Below are positions 52,482 through 52,890 of a stretch of 64,000 nt of DNA, piece by piece (the first letter of the stretch is position 1; each line of letters begins with the position of its first letter). The stretch spans positions 502,955 through 566,954 of the forward strand of contig CAVVZN010000014.1 of the NCBI GenBank assembly GCA_963752645.1, written 5' to 3'. Below the pieces are notes generated by a model. The model was not told where the DNA came from. It did not search any database and saw nothing but the letters and a program-made list of their open reading frames with translations. The stretch comes from an uncultured Actinomycetota bacterium. Lineage in GTDB: Bacteria; Actinomycetota; Actinomycetes; Frankiales; Frankiaceae. The position numbers and the translations under genes were made by a program.

Positions 52482-52890
52482 CGGTCAAGAGGGGCTGCTG
52501 ACCATTCTTTTGATCTTCTCCGCCGGTTTTTGGTCGCGTTGCAGTGCGGTGTCGGGGTCCAGGATCGGCCGGAGGCCGACCGCGTAGCGGCCGTAGGTCC
52601 TGGAGGCCGGCGCCGTGCGCAGCGACGATGTTCAAGGCGGAGAGGCATCAGGGGTGTGGCGGCTCCTGTTCGTGGGCCCGCGTTGTCTGCTCCAGAGCCG
52701 GGGTCCTTCGGCGGTTGCTGAACAAGCCCTGTGGGGGCTGTCCGGGTCATCCCTTCGCCGCGCGGGGCGGCATGGAGTGCTGCGACAGTCGGGGTCGATG
52801 GCCGAGGTCAATCAAGAAGGACGACCACGCCGGAACCGGGGGTCATGACACACACGACCAGCGGCCATCGACCACGGTGGGAGGGGCAGT
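52482..52890 (-). ncRNA. candidate bridge-RNA-encoding right end of the IS1111-like element (speculative)
   Basis: About 410 bp of non-coding DNA between the transposase stop and the left IR. This matches the position where IS1111-subgroup IS110 elements encode their bridge/seek RNA. Confidence 0.2.

What the first reader, a model, noticed from the sequence alone, without database searches (positions are those of the whole stretch)
52482..52890. Long 3' non-coding end of the intact IS1111-like element: candidate bridge RNA in the right end
Element A has only ~65 bp upstream of its transposase but ~410 bp of non-coding sequence downstream before the left IR.

This asymmetric layout matches the IS1111 subgroup, where the bridge/seek RNA is encoded at the right end. 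Element A is the only apparently functional IS in the window.
Basis: inference. Interest (0 to 1): 0.6.

Follow-up and report, generated by a model that had tools for sequence, protein, structure and literature searches.

The report
Bridge (seek) RNA of IS1111-type element
The long non-coding tail of this insertion sequence very probably encodes the guide ("bridge" or "seek") RNA that tells its transposase where to insert; this is an expected feature of this IS group, and here the guide aims at the end of another insertion sequence.

Summary
A 347-aa IS110-family transposase lies on the minus strand (53934-52891), with 15/15-bp subterminal inverted repeats, 64 nt upstream and 408 nt downstream.

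Sixty-three related elements keep the whole tail. It folds into covariation-supported helices. A model built without the window hits 52873-52745 at 117 bits.

An internal loop has a 5' arm (52854-52845) complementary to TGA plus the right flank. Its 3' arm (52821-52811) has the same sense as the left flank plus TGA. These arms change with the flanks across 24 distinct guides (0 of 10,000 permutations).

A multiloop strand (52756-52744) copies the element's right end and tracks its G/A variant in 53 of 54 elements.

Empty sites, one of them in this window (56973-56955), show a single shared TGA. They also show that the target is the conserved right end of another IS110-type element.

Three points stay open. 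No guide for the left end was found. A further conserved 127-nt structured domain (52643-52517) is unexplained. Expression and strand are inferred, not shown.

This is a new member of a known kind.

The parts
52461..54021 (-). Element A, an IS1111-type insertion sequence (1561 bp counting TGA at both junctions)
   Evidence: The ends were set from where conservation stops in 63 relatives. The left end starts TGATGCGA followed by the inverted repeat; the right end finishes with the inverted repeat followed by GG(G/A)ATGA. Empty sites confirm the boundaries.
52891..53934 (-). Transposase gene (347 aa plus stop), GTG start 7 nt after GAAGGAGG
   Evidence: The closest solved relatives are the IS621 and ISCro4 transposases, E about 2e-14.
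53999..54013 (-). Left subterminal inverted repeat, TGAAGGAGCGGGGCC
   Evidence: Perfect 15/15 bp repeat. Compensatory changes are kept in relatives: ATGTAGG pairs with CCTACAG.
52468..52482 (-). Right subterminal inverted repeat, GGCCCCGCTCCTTCA
54019..54021 (-). TGA at the left junction (candidate core)
   Evidence: TGA occurs at both junctions of occupied sites and only once in empty sites.
52461..52463 (-). TGA at the right junction (candidate core)
52793..52873 (-). Target-binding stem-loop of 81 nt (helices P1, P2, P3 around an internal loop); counterpart of the 82-96 nt 'peak' seekRNA
   Evidence: It appears in the minimum-free-energy fold. Cells paired: P1 87%, P2 98%, P3 92%, with compensatory changes. 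It is covered by the covariance-model match.
52845..52854 (-). 5' arm of the target loop, UGUGUGUCAU; reverse complement of A-TGA-CACACA, which matches the right flank TGA-CACAGA with one mismatch
   Evidence: Across 24 distinct guides, 4.79 of 6 positions match the element's own flank, against 2.13 after permutation; 0 of 10,000 permutations reach this. The highest mutual-information pairs form the expected diagonal.
52811..52821 (-). 3' arm of the target loop, UCCUUCU-UGA-U; same sense as the left flank CCCTCCT-TGA, so it can pair with the bottom strand (two G.U pairs)
   Evidence: Flank position -1 agrees with the guide in 98% of combinations and -2 in 60%; 0 of 10,000 permutations reach this.
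52690..52777 (-). Multiloop module: P4 (52777-52773 with 52694-52690) encloses hairpins P5 (52771-52757), P6 (52742-52721) and P7 (52713-52697)
   Evidence: 86% of cells are paired and 18 pairs show compensatory change. P4 pair 27-190 is U-A in 35 and C-G in 26 of 62 sequences.
52744..52756 (-). Left-donor strand GAAGGGAUGACCC, unpaired in the multiloop; AGGGAUGA copies the element's right end
   Evidence: Present in 61 of 62 elements. It follows the G/A variant of the right end in 53 of 54 (normalised mutual information 0.88-0.89).
52517..52643 (-). Third conserved structured domain: a long-range helix, two further helices and a three-way junction. Function unknown.
   Evidence: 84% of cells are paired, against 36-41% when slid. 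21 pairs show compensatory change. In 0 of 500 shuffles was the paired fraction or covariation score reached. The window copy has C.A mismatches in one helix (read from alignment A2).
52483..52488 (-). TTGACC, candidate -35 of a promoter formed when the ends are joined (TTGACC, 17 nt, GATGAT)
   Evidence: Read from the sequence. TTGAC is conserved in at least 90% of relatives. This is an inference by analogy with ISEc11.
52447..52460 (-). Right flank CACAGAGGGGAGCC, the remainder of the right end of Element B (part of the target)
   Evidence: Identical in L054 and in at least 120 metagenome contigs as part of CTTGACACAGAGGGGAGCC.
54022..54030 (-). Left flank AGCCCTCCT, also part of Element B's right end (part of the target)
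56955..56973 (-). Uninterrupted copy of the target 19-mer at the right end of a third, B-like element (an empty site within the window)

Best explanation
The 3' non-coding tail of Element A encodes an IS1111-type bridge RNA (seekRNA). The proposed mechanism has four parts.

**Making the RNA (inferred).** The tail is transcribed in the same direction as the transposase gene, probably as the 3' part of its mRNA. Transcription would start at a promoter that forms only when the element ends are joined in a circle. The RNA is then probably processed.

**Choosing the target (shown by comparison).** An 81-nt stem-loop (52873-52793) presents an internal loop with two arms.
- The 5' arm pairs with the top strand of TGA plus about 6 nt of the right flank.
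- The 3' arm pairs with the bottom strand of a few nucleotides of the left flank plus TGA.
- The two matches overlap at TGA, the 3-nt sequence shared by target and element where strands would be exchanged.

**Holding the donor (partly shown).** A following multiloop exposes a strand that copies the element's right end (AGGGAUGA). It can therefore hold the bottom strand of that end.

**Recombination (inferred).** The DEDD transposase bound to this RNA would bring the joined ends and the target together. It would insert the element without any duplication beyond the shared TGA.

In this copy the guides specify CT-TGA-CACA(G)A. That sequence is the conserved right terminus of a widespread IS110-type element, so Element A has landed in the end of Element B.

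**What is shown here:** the conserved structure, the guide-flank complementarity and its covariation, the copy of the right end, and the empty sites.

**What is inferred:** transcription and strand, processing, protein binding, strand exchange at TGA, and the junction promoter.
For: - **Protein and layout.** The element has an IS110-family RNA-guided transposase of 347 aa, 15-bp subterminal repeats, a short upstream and a long downstream non-coding region.
- **Conservation.** The tail is conserved across 63 complete relatives that have only 64-79% amino-acid identity in the transposase.
- **Helices supported by covariation.** Alignment A1: 88% of cells paired against 25-41% when slid, and 22 compensatory pairs. 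A3: 86% and 18. A2: 84% and 21. In each, 0 of 500 shuffles reached the paired fraction or covariation score.
- **Independent model.** A covariance model built without the window hits 52873-52745 (-) at 117 bits, E 3e-24. The next hit in the window scores 18 bits.
- **Right-flank guide.** It matches its own flank at 4.79 of 6 positions against 2.13 after permutation, over 24 distinct guides; 0 of 10,000 permutations reach this.
- **Left flank.** Position -1 agrees with the guide in 98% of combinations.
- **Mutual information.** The top pairs are exactly the expected guide-flank positions, plus right-end position -5 with the donor strand.
- **Window copy.** The 5' arm UGUGUGUCAU faces ATGACACAGA with one mismatch. 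The 3' arm UCCUUCUUGAU is the same sense as CCCTCCTTGAT.
- **Empty sites.** They carry a single TGA: one in the window at 56973-56955 and at least 120 in metagenome contigs.
- **An independent relative.** L054 sits in the same site and has a perfectly matching guide.
- **Published precedent.** The seekRNA lies downstream of tnp, with the top-strand match 5' of the bottom-strand match and the two overlapping. In IS1111 elements the donor nucleotides lie in a multiloop.
Against: - There are no expression data, and no sigma-70-like promoter or intrinsic terminator in the integrated element.
- The transcribed strand is not proven. Counts of G.U against A.C pairs and fold energies do not favour the sense strand. 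Only two conserved G.U pairs do: 53 of 54 sequences and 51 of 59.
- No guide for the left end (TGCGATG...) was found. The strand that would hold it reads CUCCAU in the window. Its variation is compensated by a downstream RNA strand (helix P4), not by the DNA end.
- The left-flank guide is short and of low information beyond -2.
- The window's right-flank guide has a G:G mismatch at +5.
- The third domain carries C.A mismatches in the window copy, so full activity of this copy is not assured.
- Rfam has no matching family.
Confidence: 0.88

Rival explanations
1. The conserved tail acts only in cis, either as DNA or as a structured 3' untranslated region. It might hold transposase-binding sites, the -35 of the junction promoter, or elements for mRNA stability or termination. 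In this reading no part of it guides target choice.
For: The last 30 nt or so do hold a conserved TTGAC and the inverted repeat. The third domain (52643-52517) shows no detectable complementarity to the ends or flanks, so it may well be of this kind.
Against: Compensatory base-pair changes point to selection on a folded single strand. The loop arms change together with the flanking sequences across 24 guides, which a purely cis-acting site would not do.
Confidence: 0.06
2. The functional RNA is transcribed from the opposite (window plus) strand. It would be an antisense or mirror-image guide RNA.
For: The reverse complement folds at least as well: its minimum free energy is lower in 50 of 54 and in 59 of 59 sequences, and the consensus-structure energies are about equal. 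A.C mismatches outnumber G.U pairs overall. A mirror-image RNA would still present one arm for each target strand.
Against: Two wobble pairs are conserved as G.U on the sense strand. One of them lies inside a 6-bp hairpin stem, where it would be a conserved C.A mismatch on the other strand. The G-rich strand of GC-rich DNA always folds more stably, so the energy comparison is biased. In all IS1111 members tested, the RNA maps to the sense strand downstream of tnp. No promoter-like site was found on either strand.
Confidence: 0.04
3. The segment is a remnant of a disrupted flanking gene, or it encodes a small protein.
For: Several ORFs of 59-193 aa overlap it, as expected in DNA of about 70% G+C.
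Against: The segment lies inside the element boundaries in 63 elements in unrelated contexts. None of the six ORFs has a Pfam match. 83% of indels are not multiples of three. The flanking sequence is identified as the right end of Element B.
Confidence: 0.01

Closest known systems
seekRNAs of IS1111-family elements ISEc11, ISKpn4, ISPa11 and ISPst6 (Siddiquee et al. 2024, PMC11187229)
   Same: The RNA is encoded in the long non-coding region downstream of a 330-350 aa DEDD transposase, in an element with subterminal inverted repeats. An 80-96 nt stem-loop carries one segment complementary to the top strand, followed by one complementary to the bottom strand of the target. The two overlap at the insertion point. 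Relatives are naturally re-aimed by changes in these segments. There is no internal promoter, and a promoter forms at the joined ends.
   Different: The hosts are actinobacteria and there is no detectable sequence similarity to any curated RNA family. The non-coding region is longer (about 430 nt against about 270 nt in ISEc11) and holds an extra conserved 127-nt domain. The shared sequence is the 3-nt TGA. Nothing here has been tested experimentally.
Bridge RNA of IS621 and predicted bridge RNAs of IS1111-group elements (Durrant et al. 2024, PMC11208160; Hiraizumi et al. 2024 and 2026)
   Same: A two-module RNA has a target-binding internal loop whose two arms read opposite strands and overlap at a core. 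A second module matches the element's own end. In many IS1111 members the donor-binding nucleotides sit in a multiloop, as they do here. The extra single bases next to TGA in the arms resemble handshake guides.
   Different: The IS621 RNA lies upstream of the gene, its core is the dinucleotide CT, and both donor guides sit in a simple internal loop. Here only the guide for the right end was found.
[quoted passage not shown]
   Same: An IS1111-type element whose specific target is the conserved end of another mobile element, giving nested insertions.
   Different: Here the host element is an IS110-group insertion sequence, and the site is its right-end 19-mer CTTGACACAGAGGGGAGCC.

Membership tests
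IS1111 group of the IS110 family | DEDD (RuvC-like) N-terminal domain plus the IS110-type C-terminal domain; protein of 330-350 aa | tested here: met
   Pfam PF01548 (1.1e-21) and PF02371 (2.2e-23). NCBIfam NF033542 at 204 bits against a cut-off of 140. Length 347 aa. IS621 and ISCro4 are the closest solved structures.
IS1111 group of the IS110 family | Subterminal inverted repeats of 7-17 bp, with the element extending beyond them | tested here: met
   A 15/15-bp repeat. The ends lie 8 nt (left) and 7 nt (right) outside the repeats, counting TGA on each side.
IS1111 group of the IS110 family | The longer non-coding region lies downstream of the transposase gene | tested here: met
   The non-coding region is 87 nt from the left end to the start codon and 430 nt from the stop codon to the right end.
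IS1111 group of the IS110 family | Site-specific insertion without a target duplication (only a short shared sequence at both junctions) | tested here: met
   The occupied site reads CCT-TGA-[element]-TGA-CACAG. Empty sites read CT-TGA-CACAG, both in the window and in at least 120 metagenome contigs.
IS1111 group of the IS110 family | C-terminal motif GL-P----S(T)G | tested here: inconclusive
   The window protein reads GLTPKHHESD. The serine is present but is followed by D, not G. KHHESDTK is conserved in relatives, since it served as a search pattern.
IS1111 group of the IS110 family | A circular intermediate whose junction forms a promoter | not testable with these tools
   Only the sequence can be read. 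Joining the ends with one TGA gives TTGACC, 17 nt, GATGAT.
Bridge RNA / seekRNA | A conserved secondary structure in the non-coding end, supported by covariation | tested here: met
   and the independent model.
Bridge RNA / seekRNA | A loop with one segment complementary to the top strand and one to the bottom strand of the target, overlapping at the insertion point; in IS1111 the top-strand match comes first | tested here: met
   The 5' arm 52854-52845 is complementary to ATGACACA(G)A. The 3' arm 52821-52811 has the same sense as CCCTCCT-TGA-T.
Bridge RNA / seekRNA | Guide segments covary with the flanking (target) sequence among relatives | tested here: met
   0 of 10,000 permutations for both the right and the left flank. 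The mutual-information values form the expected diagonal.
Bridge RNA / seekRNA | Segments matching both ends of the element (donor recognition) | tested here: inconclusive
   The right end is met: AGG(G/A)AUGA occurs in 61 of 62 elements and tracks the end variant in 53 of 54. No consistent guide was found for the left end. The inverted-repeat variants covary with no RNA column.
Bridge RNA / seekRNA | The RNA is expressed, binds the transposase and is required for transposition | not testable with these tools
   No expression or biochemical data are available. No promoter-like site was found in the integrated copy.
Any Rfam family | A match at or near a family's gathering score | tested here: not met
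   No matches at gathering score in the whole window. Only chance-level hits (E of 0.26 or higher) were found in 52300-54200.

The most novel reading that the evidence does not exclude
The conserved 127-nt domain at 52643-52517 consists of a long-range helix, two further helices and a three-way junction. It lies downstream of the recognisable target and donor modules. The most novel reading the evidence allows is that it is a previously undescribed functional module of IS1111-type guide RNAs. It might be the part that recognises the left end or the inverted repeats in a way sequence comparison cannot see, a protein-binding scaffold, or a switch that controls processing, excision or the junction promoter. 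The rival reading is that it is only a stabilising 3' structure.
Probability: 0.3. Interest if true: 0.55.

Novelty: new member of a known kind. Interest (0 to 1): 0.4.

Why it matters
RNA-guided IS110/IS1111 recombinases are being developed as programmable tools for inserting DNA. This locus adds an actinobacterial, high-G+C clade in which 64 natural elements carry 24 different right-flank guides. That gives a ready-made map of which loop positions are programmable.

It also shows three further things:
- a 3-nt shared core (TGA);
- donor nucleotides exposed in a multiloop;
- an extra conserved RNA domain that could be tested.

For genome annotation, it explains the nested insertion sequences in this window. 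Element A is aimed at the conserved right end of a common IS110-type element, and a second, still intact target lies about 3 kb away.

Tried and rejected
- **Rfam searches.** Nothing at gathering score and nothing useful at E up to 10.
- **RNAalifold on plain MAFFT alignments.** It recovered only fragments of the structure. I therefore drew helices by hand and tested them with pair counts and slide controls.
- **A closing stem for the donor module, CTGTC with GACAG.** Rejected. It exists only in the window's subclade, and GACAG pairs with a downstream strand (helix P6) in all clades.
- **Treating the strand 5' of P5 as the guide for the left end.**
  - In 21 relatives it reads CAUCAU, the complement of A-TGA-TG.
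  - In the window it reads CUCCAU.
  - Its variation is compensated by the downstream strand UGGAG / UGAUG / UGAAG, while the left end stays constant.
  - I therefore treat it as a helix strand.
- **Other searches for a left-end or inverted-repeat guide.** Mutual-information and k-mer searches over the whole tail found nothing consistent.
- **Strand tests.** Counts of G.U against A.C pairs and sense-against-antisense energies were inconclusive, and they are biased by base composition.
- **A naive all-against-all column-pair scan.** Too noisy in this G+C-rich RNA.
- **A weak model hit at 34325-34432.** It has no IS features nearby and is taken as chance.

Full report
**What is at the coordinates.** The window is G+C-rich.

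On the minus strand an ORF runs from 53988 to 52891. A GAAGGAGG ribosome-binding site lies 7 nt before GTG 53934, so the protein is most likely 347 aa. It matches Pfam DEDD_Tnp_IS110 and Transposase_20. It also matches NCBIfam NF033542, 'IS110 family RNA-guided transposase', at 204 bits against a cut-off of 140. The nearest solved structures are the IS621 and ISCro4 transposases.

A perfect 15-bp inverted repeat, TGAAGGAGCGGGGCC, lies at 54013-53999 and 52482-52468. Chance would give 0.33 such matches in the window even with two mismatches allowed. The distance from repeat to start codon is 64 nt, and from stop codon to repeat 408 nt.

**Relatives and true ends.** A scan of one genome per species returned 80 loci encoding transposases 64-79% identical to this one. 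They come mostly from Pseudonocardia, Nocardioides, Kribbella and uncultured Actinomycetota.

- The 3' tail aligns at about 70% nucleotide identity over nearly its full length in many of them.
- In 63 loci both ends could be delimited.
- Conservation begins at TGATGCGA followed by the left repeat. It stops at the right repeat followed by GG(G/A)ATGA, after which the flanks differ.
- The element in the window is therefore 54021-52461, with TGA at both junctions.

The tail is not coding. None of six overlapping ORFs has a Pfam match, and 83% of pairwise indels are not multiples of three. It cannot be a remnant of a neighbouring gene, because it travels with the element.

**Structure.** Rfam has no matching family. 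I drew helices by hand and tested them on three alignments.

| Alignment | Region | Cells paired | When partners are slid | Pairs with compensatory change | Shuffles reaching the paired fraction and covariation score |
|---|---|---|---|---|---|
| A1 | 5' part (P1, P2, P3, P5, P6) | 88% | 25-41% | 22 | 0 of 500 |
| A3 | middle part (P4-P7) | 86% | 34-41% | 18 | 0 of 500 |
| A2 | 3' part (six helices) | 84% | 36-41% | 21 | 0 of 500 |

A covariance model built from 46 relatives, without the window sequence, matches 52873-52745 (-) end to end at 117 bits, E 3e-24. The next hit in the 64 kb scores 18 bits. The minimum-free-energy fold of the window sequence alone already shows the first stem-loop.

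**The target-binding loop.** Helices P1 (52873-52863 with 52803-52793) and P2 close an internal loop. Hairpin P3 (52844-52823) caps it.

- The 5' arm, UGUGUGUCAU (52854-52845), is the reverse complement of A-TGA-CACACA. The right junction reads A-TGA-CACAGA, so there is one mismatch, at +5.
- The 3' arm, UCCUUCU-UGA-U (52821-52811), has the same sense as the left junction CCCTCCT-TGA-T. It can therefore pair with the bottom strand, with two G.U pairs.

Across relatives the arms change with the flanks.

- With one representative for each of 24 distinct right-flank guides, 4.79 of 6 positions match the element's own flank, against 2.13 after permutation. None of 10,000 permutations reaches this.
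- Left-flank position -1 agrees in 98% of combinations and -2 in 60%. Beyond that the signal is weak, but it still exceeds every permutation.
- The highest mutual-information pairs between RNA columns and flank positions are the expected diagonal: right-flank positions +1 to +5 with successive loop columns as complements, and left-flank positions -1 and -2 as identities.

This is the published IS1111 arrangement. The top-strand match comes first, the bottom-strand match second, and they overlap at the insertion point, all in an 82-96 nt stem-loop downstream of the gene.

**The donor module.** After a short linker, a 5-bp helix P4 (52777-52773 with 52694-52690) encloses three hairpins: P5, P6 and P7.

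- One P4 pair is U-A in 35 and C-G in 26 of 62 sequences.
- Between P5 and P6 lies the unpaired strand GAAGGGAUGACCC (52756-52744).
- Its AGGGAUGA copies the last eight bases of the element. It occurs in 61 of 62 elements.
- It follows the G/A variant of the right end in 53 of 54 (normalised mutual information 0.88-0.89).

Durrant et al. noted that in many IS1111 members the donor-binding nucleotides sit in a multiloop, and that is what is seen here.

I could not find a guide for the left end.

- The strand 5' of P5 reads CAUCAU in 21 relatives, which is the complement of A-TGA-TG. In the window it reads CUCCAU.
- Its variation is compensated by the downstream RNA strand while the DNA end stays constant.
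- Variants of the inverted repeat covary with no RNA column. The repeats are therefore probably read by protein; this is an inference.

**Target and empty sites.** The window's flanks rejoin as ...AAGCCCTCCT-TGA-CACAGAGGGGAGCC.

- The exact 19-mer CTTGACACAGAGGGGAGCC occurs in at least 120 metagenome contigs.
- In 90 of these 120 it lies 36 or about 150 nt downstream of the C-terminal coding motif of an IS110-group transposase of the same type as Element B.
- In the window the distance is 150 nt.
- The target is therefore the conserved right terminus of another insertion sequence, and Element A is nested in Element B.
- L054, from a Jatrophihabitans genome bin, carries a relative in the same site, with a perfectly matching guide.
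- A third, fragmented B-like element in the window keeps an intact 19-mer at 56973-56955.

All empty sites have one TGA where occupied sites have two. This fits a 3-nt core shared by target and element.

**Third domain.** Positions 52643-52517 form a long-range helix, two further helices and a three-way junction whose arms are 95-97% paired with many compensatory changes.

It shows no complementarity to the ends or flanks. Its function is unknown. The window copy has two C.A mismatches in one helix (read from alignment A2).

**What remains inferred.**

- No promoter-like or terminator-like site lies in the integrated element. This agrees with the ISEc11 report that only the junction promoter drives expression.
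- Joining the ends with one TGA gives TTGACC, 17 nt, GATGAT.
- The transcribed strand is not proven. Energy comparisons and wobble counts are uninformative in this composition. Two conserved G.U pairs (53 of 54; 51 of 59) and the family precedent favour the sense strand.

**Verdict.** This is an IS1111-type bridge/seek RNA, a new member of a known kind.

It has a clear target loop, a right-end donor strand in a multiloop, an unexplained extra domain, and a target that is the end of another insertion sequence.

Noticed in passing
window 54022-55600 (-) and 52447-52460 (-): Element B is an IS110-group insertion sequence whose transposase gene (55326 to about 54059) is split by a frameshift near 54440. 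Its right end is interrupted by Element A. The B-type right-end 19-mer CTTGACACAGAGGGGAGCC contains TTGACA, which may be the -35 of Element B's own junction promoter.
   Followed up: partly
window 56955-58137 (-): A third, B-like element. Transposase fragments at 58137-57275 are 54-61% identical to Element B's protein and lie in several frames. Its right-end 19-mer is intact at 56973-56955, so it is a potential second target for Element A about 3 kb away.
   Followed up: partly
L008, L012, L015, L019, L026, L031, L036, L039 (element ends): Relatives whose guides specify ..CTC-TGA-CCTGCG sit about 2-15 nt from the 3' end of a tRNA gene, in either orientation. Several other loci in this group show tRNA-like GGTTCGAA motifs in the flank that ARAGORN did not call. 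This large subclade seems aimed at a sequence just downstream of tRNA genes.
   Followed up: partly
L045:4430-4490: The right end (repeat plus GGAATGAC) is duplicated in tandem...GGAATGACCGGCCCCTCTCCTTCAGGAATGACCTGCG.
   Followed up: no
L109 (around the 19-mer): The B-type 19-mer is followed directly by another B-type transposase C-terminal motif. B-type elements therefore also occur nested or in tandem.
   Followed up: no
metagenome loci L085, L086, L092, L095 and others: About a quarter of the 19-mer sites are preceded not by the B-type coding motif but by a GTCAAGCG...GCTTGAC hairpin and ...GGACCGGCGCAC...GGCGGGAA. A second kind of element or context appears to share the same terminal 19-mer.
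   Followed up: no
window 53940-54021 (-): The short 5' leader of Element A can form two hairpins. One is GAGCGGG-GCCU-CCCGCUC, which overlaps the left repeat. The other is GUGAGAGUCCGAG...CUCGGGUUGCUCAC, just before the ribosome-binding site. Both regions are conserved in relatives. They may have a role in translation control.
   Followed up: no
window 34325-34432 (-): A weak match to the covariance model (18 bits, E 0.02). There is no transposase similarity or element end nearby, so it is most likely chance.
   Followed up: partly
window 52003-52416 (+): A glyoxalase-like gene (Pfam Glyoxalase_6, 1.6e-23) ends 31 nt before the outer end of the nested insertion sequences.
   Followed up: no
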